Sequence record: OZ035775.1
Strand: one strand, 5' to 3'
Length of the DNA: 58,371 nucleotides
From: Sashavirus BDX09P1
Shown piece after piece: positions 19,029 to 31,842 of this stretch (positions are counted from its first letter, which is position 1; each line of letters starts with the position of its first letter). The notes under the pieces are model-generated. The model was not told where the DNA came from. It did not search any database and saw only the letters and a program-made list of their open reading frames with translations. Position numbers and translations under genes: made by a program.

Positions 19029-19056
19029 ATCTCCTTTTTTTCTTCCCGTTAACCAC

Positions 19057-19098
19057 AAGATAGTCGTGTTGGTGTAATCCGTCAAGAATTATTTTAAA
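19057..19098 (-). promoter_or_regulatory. sigma70-like promoter P7 (conserved motif copy)
   Basis: Minus strand TTTAAAATAATTC-TTGACG-17-TATCTT. Confidence 0.6.
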
Positions 19099-19103
19099 GA
19101 TAC

Positions 19104-19190
19104 AGCTAATACAGAATGTGTATTAGCTACACATGGTTTTACATAGGTTTCATGATTTTGAGTTGCAGCTAATACAGAACGTGTATTAAT
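19104..19190. promoter_or_regulatory. two palindromic operator-like sites
   Basis: AGCTAATACA-gaatg-TGTATTAGCT (perfect 10-bp arms) and an imperfect second copy ~60 bp away. Confidence 0.4.
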
Positions 19191-19382: not shown

Positions 19383-19424
19383 CGTAAAATAATTCTTGAC
19401 GGATTACATCGACACAACTACCCT
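19383..19424 (+). promoter_or_regulatory. sigma70-like promoter P8 (conserved motif, plus orientation)
   Basis: TAAAATAATTC-TTGACG-17-TACCCT leading the structural operon. Confidence 0.5.
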
Positions 19425-19454
19425 GTGGTCAAGAAAACAAGAAGGGTTGAATGT

Positions 19455-19823
19455 ATGGATCCGAACATTAGAGTTGCCACAGACGAATTCATTCGTCGCG
19501 CCTGTAAAATTCACGGTGATCGTTACGACTACTCATTCAGCATTGTTGAAGATAGTTCCAGCACAGTGGTTATTATTGACCGTGAAACTAACACAGTGTT
19601 TTTCCAGGTTGTCGCTGAACATCTGGACGGTGTTGAACCAGTAACGACTGCTGTTGAACCAGTAACGACTGCTGTTGAACCAGTAACGACTGCTGTTGAA
19701 CCGATCAAGAATCTTTCTGAGATATTCGGTAACGTTGCAAACAGCGTGTATCACCAGTGCAATTATTCATCTGAAATGTTAGAATTTAGTCATGTTGAAA
19801 CAATACGAGGACAATCCCCGTGA
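19455..19823 (+). CDS. hypothetical protein with EPVTTAV repeats
   Basis: N-terminal DEFIRRACKIHGDRYDYSFS motif shared with triple-repeat protein 28318-28959; three in-frame EPVTTAV repeats. Confidence 0.45.
   Translation: MDPNIRVATDEFIRRACKIHGDRYDYSFSIVEDSSSTVVIIDRETNTVFFQVVAEHLDGVEPVTTAVEPVTTAVEPVTTAVEPIKNLSEIFGNVANSVYHQCNYSSEMLEFSHVETIRGQSP
19632..19703 (+). repeat. 21-bp in-frame tandem repeat (about 3.4 copies)
   Basis: GTTGAACCAGTAACGACTGCT repeated head to tail. Confidence 0.8.
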
Positions 19824-23352: not shown

Positions 23353-24053
23353 TAGATAGTTTTCGTGGCGACTTTGCGGACTTTTTAGAAACTGACCACA
23401 AAGATAAATGCAAACGAAGAACGTTTTCTGATGGCGGCGTAATAGCCTGTAAGTCAGCAAGGTCTTCCGATTCCTTGTAAATAAATTCGGCGCACTGGCC
23501 CGGTGTGATTAATAATGGGCACCCACGAATGAGAGTATTGTGATTGATCGTCGTTCTTGCGCGCAAAGTCTGCTCGAAGACAGTATTCTCATTCGTGGGT
23601 AACAACGGGCGTGTCGCCTTAGTAAATCCCTCAAGGGTGCAGCGAATAATCCGGTAATGTCGTTGCCGTAAGCCGCACGAAACGTGGCACACAACAGGTA
23701 AGAGCATTTGGTCAATGCGAAGTTATTCGCGCAGACGTAAGGCCTAATTGTCGGCAGTGCTCTTATCGTTGTGGTGAATTGCAGTTCTCAGAAACAACCA
23801 GAAGATAAGCGCCTGGCACTGCAACCCAAACACTCGCTGATAAGGAGGTGATCCTTATCTTGCTGGCGGGAAAGCCGCAAATCGTGGGTAAAGCATGTTG
23901 TGAAACATCCTGAACTGCGTGTCGTTTTACATAACTGGTTATTCACGTGTCACGCATAGGGGTATGTTGGGACGTCAGGTGTGGATGACCAGTTATGTAA
24001 AACCCTCATTATCACCCAGAGCCATTTGCCGTCTGTTTAAGACGGCTTTTTTT
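23353..24053 (+). ncRNA. candidate structured non-coding transcript
   Basis: ~700 bp with no credible ORF on either strand, GC-richer than surroundings, long imperfect hairpin (14-bp stem with G-U) at ~23517-23600, ends at strong terminator. Confidence 0.3.
24028..24053 (+). terminator. intrinsic terminator
   Basis: GCCGTCT-gttta-AGACGGC + 7 T. Confidence 0.7.
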
Positions 24054-27246: not shown

Positions 27247-27269
27247 GCCCGGTGTTAACCGGGCTTTTT
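27247..27269 (+). terminator. intrinsic terminator
   Basis: GCCCGG-tgttaa-CCGGGC + TTTTT. Confidence 0.6.
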
Positions 27270-27331
27270 GTTGCGTAATTTGTACAGAACTATTACTATC
27301 TAATCGTCTACTACATAAAAGGTAAAAAACC

Positions 27332-27754
27332 ATGTCAAAGTTTGACCATCTGAAAAAAGCACTTTCTCCACTGGTGCTGAAGTCTTCTGCTGAACTGATT
27401 TTAAATGAAAATTTCAGTATCACCGTGTTGAACCTGAACACCGCTAACCAGGTATATAACGTAACAGTTGCGGACTATGTAAAACAGAACGGTGTGTTGT
27501 CTGAAAACTTCTTTGAAAAACTGTGGAATCAGGAATATACACCAGAAGGTGTTAAGTTCGTGGCTAACGTTCTTATGCTGGACTGGAAACTGATTGGTGA
27601 AGATGACAAACCGGAACCATTCAGTGTTGAAGAAGCTATTGAACTGTTAAGTGATGAACGTTTTGGTCAGGTGATCTACAGTCGTGTTATTCAGTTTGCA
27701 ATTAATTCCGCATTTTTCCAGGACGAATGGGAAAAACAGATTGAAAAAAACTGA
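27332..27754 (+). CDS. tail assembly chaperone (G-like)
   Basis: 140 aa acidic protein upstream of tape measure; slippery A_AAA_AAC at its 3' end. Confidence 0.55.
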   Translation: MSKFDHLKKALSPLVLKSSAELILNENFSITVLNLNTANQVYNVTVADYVKQNGVLSENFFEKLWNQEYTPEGVKFVANVLMLDWKLIGEDDKPEPFSVEEAIELLSDERFGQVIYSRVIQFAINSAFFQDEWEKQIEKN

Positions 27755-28050
27755 TCGACTTCCTCTTGTGGAACGATAAGACAGACGGGGACGACCTGGA
27801 CTGGGTTACACAAGGGGCGGCTGCACGTGGTATATCTGTTCCGGTTGTTGTACAGAAACGACCTAGATTGCGACCTGATGCTATATTTTTTTGGAATGCT
27901 TACGTGGATCTGATGGAAGCTGATTGGGTTGCTTGTGAGCGATATGCACGGGTGTATAACGTTGATGTACAATTCCTATGGAAATTATTGGTAGCGTTGC
28001 GGTCTGCACGTGTTGTCGAGATGAAGAAAAATAAACACAAGCCCGGTTAG
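27745..28050 (+). CDS. GT-like C-terminal extension reached by -1 frameshift
   Basis: -1 frame is open from 27745 and spans track ORF 27766-28050; heptamer A_AAA_AAC at 27745-27751 in the G frame. Confidence 0.5.
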   Translation, partial: KKLIDFLLWNDKTDGDDLDWVTQGAAARGISVPVVVQKRPRLRPDAIFFWNAYVDLMEADWVACERYARVYNVDVQFLWKLLVALRSARVVEMKKNKHKPG

Positions 28051-28063
28051 TTCCGGGCTTTTT
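28041..28063. terminator. hairpin terminator
   Basis: GCCCGG-ttagtt-CCGGGC + TTTTT; same hairpin sequence as near 781 and 1466. Confidence 0.55.
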
Positions 28064-28317
28064 CATTTATGTAGTCGAGGATTGCAGGAGAGTATTTAAA
28101 CCACTCTGTAGCACCGTCAAAACCTTTAAGACGCGCGTTAAGTTCGTGATAGACCTTGTGTACCTCTTGTTCCAGTTTATACGCGTCGGCGCCTTGTGGG
28201 AACGGATACGACACGAGTTTAACCACGGGGTGTGGAGTTCGTCGTTGTAGTTGTCGTAGTCGCTGTTTTAAGTCGTTTGTAATACCAACTTTAAGCAGAG
28301 TAGGACACTGTTTATCG

Positions 28318-28959
28318 TCAGAACACGTAGAGCGTTCCGTGTTCTGACGGGTTAAAACCTGTTTCAGCGCACTGGGGGCAACCTTGTTTCATTGAAGTGT
28401 GATTGTTCGGAGTTTGTTCAAACACACCGTGTTCTGAACAAATGATTTTTACAAGGGTGGAATTGTTAACATACTCCACCAACGAATAGTCGTAATGGTC
28501 CCCGTGAACTTCGTGAGCACGAGTAATGAATTCTTCGGCGGATGAACGTCTTTGTTCAGACAATTGTTCCCAAGCACATTGTAGGCAACCTGCTTTTTGC
28601 TGCAAGTGACTATATGGACGTTGTTCAAACACTCCATGTATCGGACAGATGATTTTCACAGGAGTACACCGATTAACATACTCCACCAACGAATAGTCGT
28701 AACGGTCCCCGTGAACTTCACGGGCGCGTGTAATAAACTCTTCTGTGGTTAAACGTTGTTGCTTAACTGCACATTGGGGACAACCTCTCCCGCGAACATG
28801 ATTATTAGGAATCTGTTCAAACACACCATGTTCAGGACAGGTGATCTTCACAGGAGTACACCAATTCACATACACCACTAGCGAGTAATCGTATTTGTGC
28901 CCATGAACTTCACGGGCACGTGTGATAAATTCTTCTGTGGTTAAACGTTTCCTACTCAT
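28318..28959 (-). CDS. triple-repeat Cys-containing protein
   Basis: Three ~68-aa repeats each with EEFITRAREVHGD+YDYSLVEYVN...VKIICPEHGVFEQ...GCPQC; no GIY-YIG, HNH or LAGLIDADG catalytic motif seen. Confidence 0.55.
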   Translation of the reverse strand: MSRKRLTTEEFITRAREVHGHKYDYSLVVYVNWCTPVKITCPEHGVFEQIPNNHVRGRGCPQCAVKQQRLTTEEFITRAREVHGDRYDYSLVEYVNRCTPVKIICPIHGVFEQRPYSHLQQKAGCLQCAWEQLSEQRRSSAEEFITRAHEVHGDHYDYSLVEYVNNSTLVKIICSEHGVFEQTPNNHTSMKQGCPQCAETGFNPSEHGTLYVF

Positions 28960-28960
28960 C

Positions 28961-29140
28961 TTATTTGTCGCTTTTTAACACAGCCCAGATTAACGCACCT
29001 AACCAACCGACGAATGTCCAACCCGCAAAGATGTTAAGTAAAATAATTGCTGTTTGTTGTTTATGTTTAATGTTAATCGCGATGAGTGCTGGGATCAGAT
29101 ATACAGCAGCGATTAAGAAAAGAATGATGAAACTAGCCAT
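28961..29140 (-). CDS. small membrane protein, superinfection-immunity-like (59 aa)
   Basis: MASFIILFLIAAVYLIPALIA...NIFAGWTFVGWLGALIWAV; GGAGGG RBS after P9; preferred over antisense track ORF 28965-29147. Confidence 0.45.
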   Translation of the reverse strand: MASFIILFLIAAVYLIPALIAINIKHKQQTAIILLNIFAGWTFVGWLGALIWAVLKSDK

Positions 29141-29170
29141 TTTGTAACCCTCCGTTGTTTTGTTGATTGT

Positions 29171-29212
29171 AGGTTACACACCATTGTGCAATCCGTCAAG
29201 AATTATTTTAAA
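29171..29212 (-). promoter_or_regulatory. sigma70-like promoter P9 (conserved motif copy)
   Basis: Minus strand TTTAAAATAATTC-TTGACG-17-TAACCT. Confidence 0.6.
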
Positions 29213-29274
29213 CATTTGTCGCTTTTTAGACCCGTGTTAAACTGTGTATATGCTTCGTGAAAAGGTTAACCACA

Positions 29275-31842
29275 ATGGCACAGTATCCGATTGATATAAA
29301 AATAGACACTGGTAATGCTGACAGAAATCTTAACAGTCTTAATAACCAGTTAGACCAAACAGCTAATTCTGCAAAATCTGCTGCACAGGCTGCAAACACT
29401 TTATCAAAAAGTGAACAGCAAGCTGCAAAATCTGCACAAGTAATGGCTTCAAATACTGGTAATGCTACATCATCTTTAAAGACGATGGCATCTGGCGTAA
29501 ATCTTGCAACAAACGCCGTTCGTGGTTTTATGGCAATAGGTGCGGTGTCTTCTGCTATTGAGTTAGGAAAAGCGTTTATTGTTGCGGGTGATGCAGCTAA
29601 TCAACTTGAAGCTCGTATTGCAAGATTGACCGGGAGTACATCATCAGCCGAACAAACATTTCAAACACTCGCGGATATTGCCTCTAAAACAGGTGGTGGT
29701 CTTGCTGATACTGAACGTTTATGGGAAACCTTATCATCATCATTAAAGGATAGCGGCGCAACAAACGACCAGATATTACGATTAACTGAAACACTTCAAA
29801 AAATAGGTCGTGTTGGTGGTTCATCTGCTGAAGAAATGTCTAACGCATTACGTCAGTTTGGTCAGTCAATTTCATCTGGTGTAGTTCGTGCAGAAGAATT
29901 TAACAGCATTGTTGAACAGATGCCAGAACTGGCAAGACAGATGGCTGCTGGTTTAGGTATTTCAATGGGTGAGTTACGTCAGCAAATGCTGAATGGTGAA
30001 CTTACAGCGGAACAAGCATTGAACGCTATCATTCGTCAAACGCAAAATGTTGATGAAGAATTTAGCAAATTGCCACGGTCTTTAGATCAGGCCACAAATT
30101 CGTTATCTGTATCGTTAGCCACGTTTGTTGCAAGCGTGAATGATGTGACTGGAGCATCAAATCTTGCTGTAGACGCTATTGATACACTTACATGTTTCAT
30201 CAATAAATTAGGCGATGATTCAACAACAACTGCTGATAAATTGTGGTCAATAGCTGGCGTAATATCTAAGTTACAACCTGGTGCTATCGGAGCATCCCTT
30301 GCCGATCTGGTCTGGTCAAATGATGATGTAAATAATGCAAAAGCGTACAATGACCAGGTTGACAGATTTGTTAAAGCATCTGCTGCTGGATACGAACAAG
30401 CTAAAAAAAACCGTGATGCTACAAAACCTATTTCTATAAAAGGGACAAATGCATCAGACGCGGAAGCACAAAAACAGATTAAAAACCTGAAAGAGCAGAT
30501 CACCTACACCCAGGCGCTTGCTGACGGTAATTATGAACTGGCAGCAAGTCAGAAACTGGGTAACAAAGCAACAAAGGAACAGATTGCAGACTACGCCGCG
30601 TTGTTGAAGCAACAGGCAGAATATAAAGAAAATCAAAAGAACCAGAAGAAATCAGCGAGTGCTGAAGCATCTGCGGCTAAACGTGCACAGAAAGAACTGG
30701 AACGTAATCAGGCTGCTAACCAGAAATACCTGAAAACGCTTCAGGATAAAATCAATGCTGGTAATTATGATGTTCAGTTAGCACGCGAACAGGTTCAGAT
30801 TGCTTTAACACAGGGGTCGTCTGTTGAACAACTTACAGCAACATATCAGAAAGAATATCAGGTACGTCAACAGTTAACGCTGGCATCACAACAAGCAGAA
30901 GCACAGTCACGATTGAATAAAGACGCGACTGATGCTGAACGTGCCGCTGTTGATGCACATGTGGCTGCATTGCAACGTCAACAGCAGGCGCAACAGTTAG
31001 CTGGTCAGGTTTCACAGGTACAAACCGATGTACAGGGTGAGTTAAACCCGTATCAATCACAGGTTGATCAGGTTAATCAGCAGGAAGCACAACGTCTTAC
31101 TGTCATACAACAAGCCCGTGAACAAGATTTAATCAACGAGCAACAATACCAAGATATGAAAACGCAGATTCAACAGGCTGGGGAACAAGCCCGTACGAAT
31201 CTTGCAAATGCTAACTACAGCTTGTTGCTACAATCCAGTGCTGATTTTTTGGGTCAAATGGCTGCTGGTCTGGCACAATCTAAAGGTGAGCAATCAAACG
31301 CGTATAAAGCGATGTTTGCACTCTCTAAAGCCTTTAGTATTGCACAGGCAAGCATTAACCTGTGGACAGCAGTTAGCCAGGCTATGGCGTTGCCGTTCCC
31401 GGCGAATATTCCGTTCATTGCACAGGCTTTGTCATATGGAACAAGCGTGTTAGGTAACATTCAGTCTGTGGCTGCAACAGGTTTTGCAACGGGTGGTTAT
31501 GTTAAAGGTCCGGGTACAGGTCAGAGTGATAGTATAAACGCACGTTTGAGTAATGGTGAGTTTGTCAGTACCAAACAGGCTACCAGTCGTTATCGTAGCA
31601 CTCTGGAAGCAATGAATCGTGGCACATATACACCAGGATCTGAAGGTGGTTCGTCACCTAATATTCAGGTTCATAACTACGGTGGTGAACGTGTTCAGGT
31701 GAAACAAGGATTAACACGAGATGACGTAGTGCTTATCATAGGTGAAGAATTCCCACGACAATCAGCGGCACAATGGAATGACCCGTACAGTCAGACAAAT
31801 AAAGCGTTCAGGTCTAACTATGATGCGAACAGGAAAATATAA
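29275..31842 (+). CDS. tail tape measure protein
   Basis: ~855 aa, Ala/Gln-rich helical repeats, position after G/GT. Confidence 0.8.
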   Translation: MAQYPIDIKIDTGNADRNLNSLNNQLDQTANSAKSAAQAANTLSKSEQQAAKSAQVMASNTGNATSSLKTMASGVNLATNAVRGFMAIGAVSSAIELGKAFIVAGDAANQLEARIARLTGSTSSAEQTFQTLADIASKTGGGLADTERLWETLSSSLKDSGATNDQILRLTETLQKIGRVGGSSAEEMSNALRQFGQSISSGVVRAEEFNSIVEQMPELARQMAAGLGISMGELRQQMLNGELTAEQALNAIIRQTQNVDEEFSKLPRSLDQATNSLSVSLATFVASVNDVTGASNLAVDAIDTLTCFINKLGDDSTTTADKLWSIAGVISKLQPGAIGASLADLVWSNDDVNNAKAYNDQVDRFVKASAAGYEQAKKNRDATKPISIKGTNASDAEAQKQIKNLKEQITYTQALADGNYELAASQKLGNKATKEQIADYAALLKQQAEYKENQKNQKKSASAEASAAKRAQKELERNQAANQKYLKTLQDKINAGNYDVQLAREQVQIALTQGSSVEQLTATYQKEYQVRQQLTLASQQAEAQSRLNKDATDAERAAVDAHVAALQRQQQAQQLAGQVSQVQTDVQGELNPYQSQVDQVNQQEAQRLTVIQQAREQDLINEQQYQDMKTQIQQAGEQARTNLANANYSLLLQSSADFLGQMAAGLAQSKGEQSNAYKAMFALSKAFSIAQASINLWTAVSQAMALPFPANIPFIAQALSYGTSVLGNIQSVAATGFATGGYVKGPGTGQSDSINARLSNGEFVSTKQATSRYRSTLEAMNRGTYTPGSEGGSSPNIQVHNYGGERVQVKQGLTRDDVVLIIGEEFPRQSAAQWNDPYSQTNKAFRSNYDANRKI

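What the first reader, a model, noticed from the sequence alone, without database searches (positions are those of the whole stretch)
28318..28959. Triple-repeat protein shares a signature motif with gene 19455-19823
Each ~68-aa repeat carries EEFITRAREVHGD(R/H)YDYSLVEYVN...CPEHGVFEQ...GCPQC. A single copy of the N-terminal part (DEFIRRACKIHGDRYDYSFS) heads the unrelated gene at 19455, which then continues with EPVTTAV repeats. The motif resembles DNA-binding modules seen attached to phage homing endonucleases, but no nuclease catalytic motif is present in either gene.
Basis: partly seen in the sequence, partly recalled or inferred. Interest (0 to 1): 0.5.

Follow-up and report, generated by a model that had tools for sequence, protein, structure and literature searches.

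The report
Frameshifted phage homing endonuclease gene
The triple-repeat gene is the DNA-binding front half of an ordinary selfish phage nuclease gene (a T5orf172/GIY-YIG homing endonuclease) whose nuclease half lies just downstream, cut off by a 2-base deletion; the second gene carries one zinc-less copy of the same DNA-binding module.

Summary
The repeats are real: ORF 28318-28959 (minus strand, 213 aa) holds three ~65-aa modules that are 70-73% identical to each other (Pfam DUF723, E 4e-14). Gene 19455-19823 carries one homologous module (profile E 1.4e-10).

The claim that no nuclease is present fails. A 2-bp deletion at 28322|28321 splits the ORF from a T5orf172/MUG113 (GIY-YIG superfamily) domain encoded at 28047-28341. 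Intact 304-aa alleles exist in phage Bas82, where it is annotated 'endonuclease', and in metagenome contigs. One contig allele differs from the window by 6 substitutions plus the deletion.

The gene sits in a 1,163-bp minus-strand cassette (promoter, superinfection-immunity gene, endonuclease). The cassette lies between the tail chaperone and tape-measure genes and is precisely absent from close relatives (PDP46, Sasha). It marks the edge of a divergent tape-measure block. This is the T5orf172 homing-endonuclease architecture with repeated Zn-finger DNA-binding domains described by Barth et al. 2023.

Gene 19455 has lost the zinc ligands and has no nuclease domain. It carries a 21-bp coding repeat whose copy number runs from 1 to 10 across the clade. 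It is either a decaying or a domesticated module; which one is unresolved. Overall this is a new member of a known kind, of low interest.

The parts
28318..28959 (-). Truncated ORF (213 aa): the N-terminal DNA-binding half of the homing endonuclease gene. It ends at a TGA created by the frameshift.
28756..28944 (-). Repeat 1 (aa 6-68), a DUF723-type treble-clef Zn-finger module (C41, H44, C60, C63).
28543..28755 (-). Repeat 2 (aa 69-139), a DUF723-type module (C105, H108, C125, C128).
28345..28542 (-). Repeat 3 (aa 140-205), a DUF723-type module (C174, H177, C194, C197).
28321..28322 (-). Site of the 2-bp deletion. The window reads GTGTT|CTGACG, where intact alleles read GTGTTAACTGACG or GTGTTAGCTGACG. 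The deletion shifts the frame by +1.
28047..28341 (-). Coding sequence of the T5orf172/MUG113 (GIY-YIG superfamily) nuclease domain. The first strand (GTLYV) is in the ORF frame; the remainder is in the +1 frame down to the stop codon at 28047-28049.
28961..29140 (-). Superinfection-immunity (Imm, PF14373) gene, 59 aa, immediately upstream of the endonuclease gene in the same cassette.
29141..29232 (-). Promoter region of the cassette. It contains the phage-wide promoter-like motif AATTCTTGACGGATT at 29190-29204.
28070..29232 (-). The whole inserted cassette (1,163 bp). It is absent from the empty site of PDP46 and Sasha, which reads ...TTTTTCATATA|TTATGGTTA|ACGTGTTAAAC...
29233..30471 (+). 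5' part of the tape-measure gene, which co-varies with the endonuclease gene. Against phages lacking the endonuclease it is 76% identical and then unalignable; against phages carrying it, 93-98% identical.
19455..19823 (+). Accessory gene (122 aa): one zinc-less DUF723-type module, a heptad coding repeat of variable copy number, and a 42-aa tail. Its stop codon overlaps the GTG start of the XkdF-like protease gene (GTGA).
19470..19631 (+). The single DUF723-type module (aa 6-59). The CxxH knuckle is replaced by D-R-E-T-N and there is no CxxC.
19631..19702 (+). 21-bp x 3.4 perfect tandem repeat encoding (V)EPVTTA.
19385..19432 (+). Promoter-like region ahead of gene 19455. It is an inverted duplicate (88% over 48 nt) of the leftward promoter region at 19049-19096.

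Best explanation
Region 28047-28959 (minus strand) is a free-standing homing endonuclease gene of the T5orf172 family (GIY-YIG superfamily).

The intact 304-aa protein has two parts:
- An N-terminal array of three tandem DUF723-type treble-clef zinc-finger modules. Each is a helix, then a beta-hairpin with a CxxH knuckle, then a CxxC at the N-terminus of a helix. The array would bind an extended DNA target.
- A C-terminal T5orf172 nuclease domain that would cut nearby.

Inferred mechanism: in a mixed infection the enzyme would cleave the allele that lacks the gene, near the junction of the tail-chaperone and tape-measure genes. Repair from the genome that carries the gene would copy in the cassette and the flanking tape-measure sequence.

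In this genome a 2-bp deletion (28322|28321) has just inactivated the gene. What remains is a 213-aa protein consisting of the zinc-finger array only, followed by an untranslated nuclease-domain remnant.

Gene 19455-19823 carries a single copy of the same module type that has lost its zinc ligands, and it has no nuclease domain. It is most likely a leftover or recruited piece of another endonuclease of this family, kept as the first ORF of the head-gene operon.

Shown here: domain identities, the frameshift, the presence/absence polymorphism, the fold, and the mosaic flank. Inferred: DNA binding, cleavage, homing and the target site.
For: Domains:
- DUF723 E 4.2e-14 in 3 stretches; DUF4379 E 4.5e-7.
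- T5orf172 E 1.5e-12 and MUG113 E 2.2e-12 on the repaired protein; T5orf172 E 1.2e-14 on Bas82_0047.
- PHROG 681 'endonuclease' E 8e-85.

Frameshift:
- The DNA alignment shows a 2-bp gap against Bas82 and PJ16.
- The window differs from an intact allele (L015) by 6 substitutions plus the AA deletion, with none downstream of it.
- The 213-aa form is seen only on this contig, while most of the 90%-identity cluster is 304 aa.

Fold:
- AlphaFold model of the intact allele P0027 has pLDDT 87.

Conserved residues:
- All 12 Zn ligands are invariant in 24 homologs, as are Y211, K224, G226, R234, E264, H268 and E286-W287.

Mobility:
- The cassette is absent at exactly the same site in PDP46 and Sasha.
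- Against phages lacking the gene, the left flank is 96-98% identical but the right flank is 76% identical and then unalignable for about 1 kb.
- Paralogous endonuclease genes sit at other intergenic sites in a related phage contig.
- A homolog in phage LPST10 also abuts a tape-measure gene.

Decay in relatives:
- The PJ16 allele has an in-frame 207-bp deletion of one repeat plus a nonsense codon.

Literature:
- T5orf172 homing endonucleases with repeated CapR/DUF723/DUF4379 Zn-fingers, and recombination between the repeats (PMC10448857).
- T5orf172 nuclease activity of Odn, abolished by E180A (PMC8263062).
- Zn-finger-dependent DNA binding of the related CapR domain (PMC8096241).

Gene 19455.
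Against: - No cleavage, DNA binding, zinc content or homing has been measured for this protein or any close homolog.
- The closest experimental data are from Vibrio phage ICP1 and PLE proteins, which carry CapR rather than DUF723 modules.
- The CapR Pfam model scores just under its threshold here (23.7 vs 24.2 bits).
- The second GIY-YIG tyrosine is replaced by lysine (KVG), as is usual in T5orf172.
- The equivalence of E264 or E286 to the catalytic Glu was not established. A profile comparison with I-TevI was not significant.
- Whether the 2-bp deletion is a real mutation or an assembly error cannot be decided from one sequence.
- For gene 19455, the intact ORF in about 98 sequence clusters and pN/pS 0.22 on the module argue against pure junk.
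Confidence: 0.85

Rival explanations
1. The 2-bp deletion is a sequencing or assembly error. The phage really encodes the intact, active 304-aa homing endonuclease.
For: - The downstream T5orf172 reading frame is identical to an intact allele, with no further lesions.
- The truncated 213-aa form occurs on one contig only.
Against: - The deletion is not in a homopolymer (GTGTT[AA]CTGACG).
- Independent inactivating lesions occur in relatives: PJ16 has a nonsense codon and a repeat deletion. Decay of this gene is therefore common.
Confidence: 0.2
2. The truncated 213-aa protein, a three-zinc-finger array, is a functional stand-alone DNA-binding protein. It would be a CapR-like domesticated regulator or a blocker of the target site, selected for in this phage.
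For: - It retains all 12 Zn ligands, its own start codon and its promoter.
- There is precedent: CapR is a nuclease-free derivative of T5orf172 endonuclease DNA-binding domains that represses a capsid operon (PMC8096241).
Against: - It is present in a single genome, and every other long-contig allele in the cluster is 304 aa.
- The nuclease remnant downstream is still unmutated, so the event is too recent to show selection.
- The truncation falls inside strand 1 of the nuclease domain rather than at a domain boundary.
Confidence: 0.07
3. Programmed +1 ribosomal frameshifting at UUC UGA restores synthesis of a full-length nuclease.
For: A stop codon in the zero frame with the continuation in the +1 frame is the geometry of prfB-type frameshifting.
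Against: - tRNA-Phe cannot re-pair on UCU after a +1 slip.
- No upstream Shine-Dalgarno-like stimulator was seen.
- The product would replace the conserved Leu213 (invariant in the 15-sequence alignment; present in at least 90% of 24 homologs) with Phe and lose one residue.
- Relatives encode the protein in a single frame.
Confidence: 0.02
4. One reading: both genes encode a novel nuclease-free class of repeat proteins that share a signature nucleic-acid-binding motif.
For: As literal ORFs, neither contains a complete nuclease domain.
Against: - The nuclease domain is fused in all intact alleles and lies adjacent, frameshifted, here.
- The motif is Pfam DUF723, already described as the DNA-binding domain of T5orf172 and HNH phage endonucleases (PMC10448857).
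Confidence: 0.02

Closest known systems
T5orf172 homing endonucleases with repeated Zn-finger DNA-binding domains (Barth, Dunham & Seed 2023, PMC10448857; e.g. ICP1 gp165/gp174 and the 6-repeat gene of Vibrio phage Helene)
   Same: - N-terminal tandem CapR/DUF723/DUF4379-type Zn-finger modules with a C-terminal T5orf172 domain.
- Free-standing intergenic location.
- Position at the boundary of a divergent or recombinant block.
- In-frame loss of a repeat by recombination between repeats: PJ16 lost 207 bp here, ICP1 gp174* lost 228 bp.
   Different: - The host phage is an E. coli Sashavirus/Nonanavirus-like siphophage.
- The modules score as DUF723/DUF4379, and CapR is just under threshold.
- The ligand pattern is C-x2-H...C-x2-C rather than CapR's CxxC...CxC.
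- This copy is frameshifted.
Escherichia phage KarinMuster_Bas82 gene Bas82_0047 ('endonuclease', XPK41763.1) and PHROG 681
   Same: - Ortholog at the same locus, with the same cassette including the imm gene.
- The cassette region is 90% identical in DNA.
- 304 aa and intact.
   Different: The window allele carries the 2-bp deletion. The repeats have diverged (74% aa identity over the repeat array, 91% over the nuclease domain).
I-TevI (phage T4 GIY-YIG homing endonuclease)
   Same: - Modular arrangement of a nuclease domain and a DNA-binding region that includes a treble-clef-like zinc finger.
   Different: - Domain order is reversed: in I-TevI the nuclease is N-terminal.
- I-TevI is intron-encoded.
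- I-TevI has one Zn finger plus a minor-groove helix and an HTH, not three tandem modules.
- There is no detectable sequence similarity.
CapR of Vibrio cholerae PLE (Netter et al. 2021, PMC8096241)
   Same: It is a nuclease-free protein made of an endonuclease-type Zn-finger DNA-binding domain. This is the natural analogy both for the 213-aa truncated product and for gene 19455, which sits at the head of a capsid-gene operon.
   Different: - CapR needs its four cysteines for DNA binding, whereas the 19455 module has lost its ligands.
- CapR is encoded by a satellite, not by the phage.
- No regulatory role has been shown here.
Odn (ICP1 gp88; Barth et al. 2021, PMC8263062)
   Same: It has a C-terminal T5orf172 domain with demonstrated double-strand cleavage that depends on a conserved Glu.
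   Different: Odn's DNA-binding domain is RepA_N, not Zn-finger repeats. It acts as an anti-satellite nuclease rather than as a homing element.

Membership tests
Pfam DUF723 (PF05265) Zn-finger module | Profile match above the curated gathering score | tested here: met
   52.7 bits against a cut-off of 20.9, E 4.2e-14, in 3 stretches of the 213-aa ORF.
Pfam DUF723 (PF05265) Zn-finger module | Four conserved zinc ligands in a treble-clef arrangement (knuckle on a beta-hairpin, plus the N-terminus of a helix) | tested here: met
   C-x2-H ... C-x2-C is invariant in each of the 3 repeats across 24 homologs. The AlphaFold model places CxxH at a hairpin turn and CxxC at a helix start. Zinc binding itself was not measured.
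Pfam DUF723 (PF05265) Zn-finger module - gene 19455 | Profile match and zinc ligands | tested here: inconclusive
   - Pfam-A gave no DUF723 hit at E<=1 for this protein.
- A family-specific repeat profile gives E 1.4e-10 over positions 2-51 of 61.
- Several orthologs carry a precomputed PF05265 hit.
- The ligands are absent: D-R-E-T-N replaces C-P-E-H, and there is no CxxC.
Pfam T5orf172 (PF10544) / MUG113 (PF13455), GIY-YIG clan | Profile match above the gathering score | tested here: met
   - Repaired window protein: T5orf172 48.3 bits (cut-off 20), MUG113 47.8 bits (cut-off 22.3).
- Even the 59-aa downstream ORF alone passes: 20.4 and 22.8 bits.
- In the window the domain is split by the frameshift.
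GIY-YIG nuclease superfamily | GIY-YIG alpha/beta fold | tested here: met
GIY-YIG nuclease superfamily | Catalytic residues: Tyr of GIY, Tyr of YIG, Arg in helix 1, catalytic Glu | tested here: inconclusive
   - Y211, R234, E264 and E286 are invariant in 24 homologs.
- The second Tyr is Lys (KVG), as is typical of T5orf172.
- Residue-level equivalence to I-TevI E75 or Odn E180 was not established (not significant).
GIY-YIG nuclease superfamily | Endonuclease activity | not testable with these tools
   Activity has been shown only for a distant T5orf172 protein, Odn (PMC8263062).
Free-standing homing endonuclease gene | Presence/absence polymorphism at one precise site among otherwise near-identical genomes | tested here: met
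   - The 1,163-bp cassette is present in the window, PJ16, Bas82, 536P12 and L015/L016.
- PDP46, AVIO78A, Sasha, Solent, Sergei and 9NA match only the left flank. The empty site was read directly in PDP46 and Sasha, which are 96% identical up to the junction.
Free-standing homing endonuclease gene | Association with a boundary of sequence exchange, or co-converted flanks | tested here: met
   The tape-measure 5' region 29233-30471 is divergent in phages lacking the gene and conserved in phages carrying it. The tape-measure protein is 855 aa in carriers and 971 aa in non-carriers.
Free-standing homing endonuclease gene | Cleavage of the allele lacking the gene, and super-Mendelian inheritance in co-infection | not testable with these tools
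   Needs cleavage assays and mixed infections.
Pfam CapR homology domain (PF21817) | Profile match above the gathering score | tested here: not met
   23.7 bits against a cut-off of 24.2, and 19.5-21.3 bits on full-length proteins. It is a related Zn-finger, but it is not filed here as CapR.

The most novel reading that the evidence does not exclude
Gene 19455-19823 is not junk. It would be a domesticated, zinc-independent derivative of an endonuclease DNA-binding module, a phage-encoded analogue of the satellite protein CapR.

In this reading it is the first gene of the head-morphogenesis operon and binds DNA, for example the two operator-like palindromes GCTAATACAGAAYGTGTATTA at 19105 and 19168 in its own upstream region. 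That would tune head-gene or divergent early-gene expression. A rapidly length-variable Pro/Thr heptad linker (1-10 copies in the population) would connect it to a conserved 42-aa tail.
Probability: 0.12. Interest if true: 0.5.

Novelty: new member of a known kind. Interest (0 to 1): 0.2.

Why it matters
It matters little for new biology. The locus is a textbook-style illustration of the life cycle of a homing endonuclease gene. Among close relatives one can see an empty site, an intact allele, a repeat-deleted and nonsense allele, and this freshly frameshifted allele. The locus also shows the recently described tendency of T5orf172 endonuclease genes to sit at the edges of exchanged blocks, here a tape-measure variant that is 116 aa shorter.

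Practically, the two ORFs at 28047-28959 should be annotated as one disrupted endonuclease gene.

The only open point is the role of the clade-specific, zinc-less DUF723 gene with its hypervariable heptad repeat ahead of the head genes.

Tried and rejected
- **Solved structures.** A PDB sequence search with the intact protein found no relatives at E<=10.
- **Mapping catalytic residues.** A profile comparison of the family with the I-TevI catalytic domain was not significant. Catalytic residues therefore could not be mapped by sequence.
- **A second repeat in gene 19455.** MAFFT suggested that the C-terminal tail might be a collapsed second DUF723 repeat. I rejected this: the tail scores 0.5 bits against the repeat profile, and 195 of 1000 shuffles do as well.
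- **Nuclease remnants elsewhere.** A search for a T5orf172 remnant near gene 19455, or anywhere else in the window in six frames, found none. The weak tblastn hit at 23486-23593 (E 0.004) was not supported by the profile.
- **Triple DNA sub-sites.** I looked for repeated sites around the empty site and the tape-measure 5' region that three similar fingers might read. Only short repeats typical of tape-measure coding sequence turned up, so nothing is interpretable.
- **PADLOC defence models.** Only a weak hit of the T5orf172 domain to PDC-S57 (E 1.4e-5), and nothing for imm or gene 19455.
- **Programmed +1 frameshift.** Considered and rejected on codon and tRNA grounds, and because orthologs are encoded in a single frame.
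- **First structure submission.** I repeated it with the database allele P0027.

Full report
**Context.** The window is a complete 58,371-bp contig of an E. coli siphophage of the Sashavirus/Nonanavirus (9NA-like) group.
- Region 27300-29300 is 95% identical to Escherichia phage vB_EcoS_PJ16, 90% to KarinMuster_Bas82 and 90% to Sashavirus 536P12.
- The exact 213-aa and 122-aa proteins are on record only for a contig of this length.

**Observation.** ORF 28318..28959 lies on the minus strand and encodes 213 aa.
- It contains three tandem modules (aa 6-68, 69-139, 140-205) that are 70-73% identical to one another, with E 1e-23 to 1e-27.
- Gene 19455..19823 (+) shares the module over about 50 residues. 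tblastn gives E 3e-7 to 1e-6.
- A profile built from 45 repeats gives E 1.4e-10 in a six-frame search of the whole window, and finds no further copy.
- The EPVTTAV stretch is a perfect 21-bp x 3.4 tandem repeat at 19631-19702.
- The descriptive part of the finding is therefore correct.

The 213-aa ORF ends ...GFNPSEHGTLYVF*.
- The small ORF just downstream (28047..28226) matches the C-terminal half of Pfam MUG113 and T5orf172.
- The +1 frame reads through as SDDKQCPTLLKVGITNDLKQRLRQL...ATEWFKYSPAILDYINEKARN.
- Aligned with Bas82 and PJ16, the window has a 2-bp gap: GTGTT--CTGACG against GTGTTAGCTGACG and GTGTTAACTGACG.
- With the gap repaired, the protein is 304 aa. It scores DUF723 E 1.6e-13, T5orf172 E 1.5e-12 and MUG113 E 2.2e-12, all above Pfam's cut-offs.
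- The Bas82 ortholog (Bas82_0047) is intact, 304 aa and annotated 'endonuclease'. It matches PHROG 681 'endonuclease' at E 8e-85.
- An intact allele on a metagenomic phage contig (L015, JANPXW010238876.1) differs from the window by six substitutions plus the AA deletion at gene positions 639-640 (window 28322|28321). There is no difference downstream of the deletion.
- In the 90%-identity cluster, 10 of 15 members are 304 aa, and the 213-aa form occurs only here.
- The lesion is therefore very recent, or possibly an assembly error.

**Structure.**
- An AlphaFold model of the intact allele P0027 has mean pLDDT 87.
- Each repeat is a helix, a beta-hairpin carrying C-x2-H at its turn, a short helix, and C-x2-C at the start of another helix. 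This is a treble-clef zinc finger.
- All twelve ligands are invariant in 24 homologs that are 39-87% identical to P0027.
- The C-terminal domain has a beta-beta-alpha-beta-alpha layout.
- Foldseek also ranks Slx1 best among specific hits.
- Y211, K224, G226, R234, E264, H268 and E286-W287 are invariant.
- I could not map these onto I-TevI by sequence, and PDB holds no sequence relative.

**Genomic setting.** The gene lies in a 1,163-bp minus-strand cassette (28070-29232) inside a plus-strand tail operon.
- The cassette holds a promoter-like motif (29190-29204), a 59-aa Imm superinfection-immunity gene (PF14373, E 1e-16) and the endonuclease gene.
- The last codons of the endonuclease gene run into the bidirectional terminator of the tail-chaperone gene.
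- PDP46 and Sasha have an empty site at exactly this position...TTTTTCATATA|TTATGGTTA|ACGTGTTAAAC....
- Against these phages, which lack the gene, the left flank is 96-98% identical up to 28070. The first 200 bp of the tape-measure gene are only 76-78% identical, the next ~1 kb is unalignable, and identity returns to 94-95% from 30471.
- The phages that carry the gene are 93-98% identical throughout.
- Tape-measure length co-varies: 855 aa in the annotated carriers Bas82 and PJ16 (the window's own ORF fits this), and 971 aa in the non-carriers PDP46 and Sasha.
- A related 58.4-kb contig carries paralogs of this endonuclease next to the portal and Mu-F-like genes.
- The homolog in Salmonella phage LPST10 also abuts a tape-measure gene.
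- PJ16's allele has lost exactly one repeat (207 bp, in frame, by recombination between repeats 2 and 3) and has a GAA-to-TAA nonsense codon.

**Comparison with the literature.** All of this matches the T5orf172 homing endonucleases described by Barth et al. 2023 (PMC10448857).
- Of those genes, 87% carry one or more CapR/DUF723/DUF4379 Zn-finger domains, often repeated.
- Repeats recombine to give in-frame deletions.
- The genes sit at boundaries of genetic exchange.
- Nuclease activity of a T5orf172 domain was shown for Odn and abolished by E180A (PMC8263062).
- Zn-finger-dependent DNA binding was shown for CapR (PMC8096241).
- The family is very large: at least 7,998 database proteins match at E<=1e-5, with up to about seven repeats.

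**Mechanism.** This part is inferred.
- The three fingers bind an extended site. The GIY-YIG-type domain cuts nearby in genomes that lack the cassette.
- Recombinational repair then copies in the cassette together with the adjacent tape-measure block.
- In this genome the enzyme is dead. Only a three-finger DNA-binding protein can be made, and the 59-aa downstream ORF lacks the GIY and YIG strands and the conserved Arg.

**Gene 19455.**
- Full-length homologs occur only in this phage clade: five records in the phage collection and 98 sequence clusters, all at least 75% identical and mostly on 50-59-kb contigs.
- Sasha has no such gene. Homology with Sasha resumes exactly at the XkdF-like start codon at 19820.
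- The gene has its own promoter-like element, which is an inverted duplicate of the neighbouring leftward promoter.
- Its stop codon overlaps the GTG start of the XkdF-like gene.
- Its module is 40-48% identical to repeats of T5orf172/GIY-YIG endonucleases in Salmonella, Klebsiella and Vibrio phages.
- The CxxH knuckle is replaced by D-R-E-T-N and the CxxC is missing.
- AlphaFold predicts residues 8-58 with pLDDT 85-92 and the same topology as an endonuclease repeat, and residues 66-122 below 50. That alignment contained endonuclease repeats, which favours this result.
- The heptad copy number ranges from 1 to 10 in the population.
- Pooled pN/pS among six phages is 0.28: 0.22 for the module, 0.79 for the tail, and 0.04 for the neighbouring XkdF-like gene. 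Counts are small.
- Across 98 variants the last 24 residues are almost invariant.
- The tail is not a detectable second repeat, and no nuclease remnant is present.
- I read the gene as a remnant or recruited piece of another endonuclease of this family. Whether it still has a function is unresolved.

**Verdict.** The repeats and the shared motif are real. The main feature is a recently disrupted member of a described homing-endonuclease family. Novelty is low, and the only mildly open question is the zinc-less module gene with its variable repeat.

Noticed in passing
window 28961-29140 (-): A 59-aa Imm-type superinfection-immunity gene (PF14373, E 1e-16) travels with the endonuclease gene in the same promoter-bearing cassette in all four annotated carriers (Bas82, PJ16, L015/L016). 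It may be cargo that benefits from the endonuclease's mobility.
   Followed up: partly
window 29233-30471 (+), tape-measure gene: The 5' third of the tape-measure gene is a mosaic block that co-varies with the endonuclease cassette. Against phages lacking the cassette it is 76% identical and then unalignable. The tape-measure protein is 855 aa in carriers and 971 aa in non-carriers, which should give a shorter tail.
   Followed up: partly
window, 18 sites, e.g. 19076-19090 (-), 19391-19405 (+), 29190-29204 (-): The promoter-like motif AATTCTTGACGGATT (a TTGACG -35 element with an A/T-rich upstream part) occurs 18 times at up to 3 mismatches, against 2.3 expected. It precedes both DUF723-bearing genes.
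   Followed up: partly
window 19631-19702: The 21-bp coding tandem repeat (heptad VEPVTTA) is a population-level variable-number repeat, with 1 to 10 copies among 98 homolog clusters. The most common counts are 2 and 3.
   Followed up: yes
window 19105-19125 and 19168-19188: Two copies of a partly palindromic 21-mer, GCTAATACAGAAYGTGTATTA, lie 63 bp apart between divergent promoters. They are unique in the genome and not conserved in Sasha. They look like operators, but the binding protein is unknown.
   Followed up: partly
window 19049-19096 and 19385-19432: A 48-nt inverted repeat (88% complementary). The rightward promoter and leader ahead of gene 19455 are an inverted duplicate of the leftward promoter region.
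   Followed up: partly
window 27269-27271: Relative to PDP46, Bas82 and Sasha, the window and PJ16 lack a minus-strand gene between the tail-tube and chaperone genes. That gene is 264 nt in PDP46 and Bas82, and 624 nt (gp43) in Sasha. Its promoter region is 76% similar to the cassette promoter at 29137-29212.
   Followed up: no
window 27332-27754 and 27766-28050 (+): A tail assembly chaperone pair. In Sasha the homologous pair is annotated as a programmed-frameshift product (G/GT-like).
   Followed up: no
L012 3501-4403 and L013 3501-4391 (contig ERZ27317858 k141_561431): A related 58.4-kb phage contig carries at least two further paralogs of the DUF723-T5orf172 endonuclease. One is just upstream of the Mu-F-like head morphogenesis gene and one is next to the portal gene.
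   Followed up: partly
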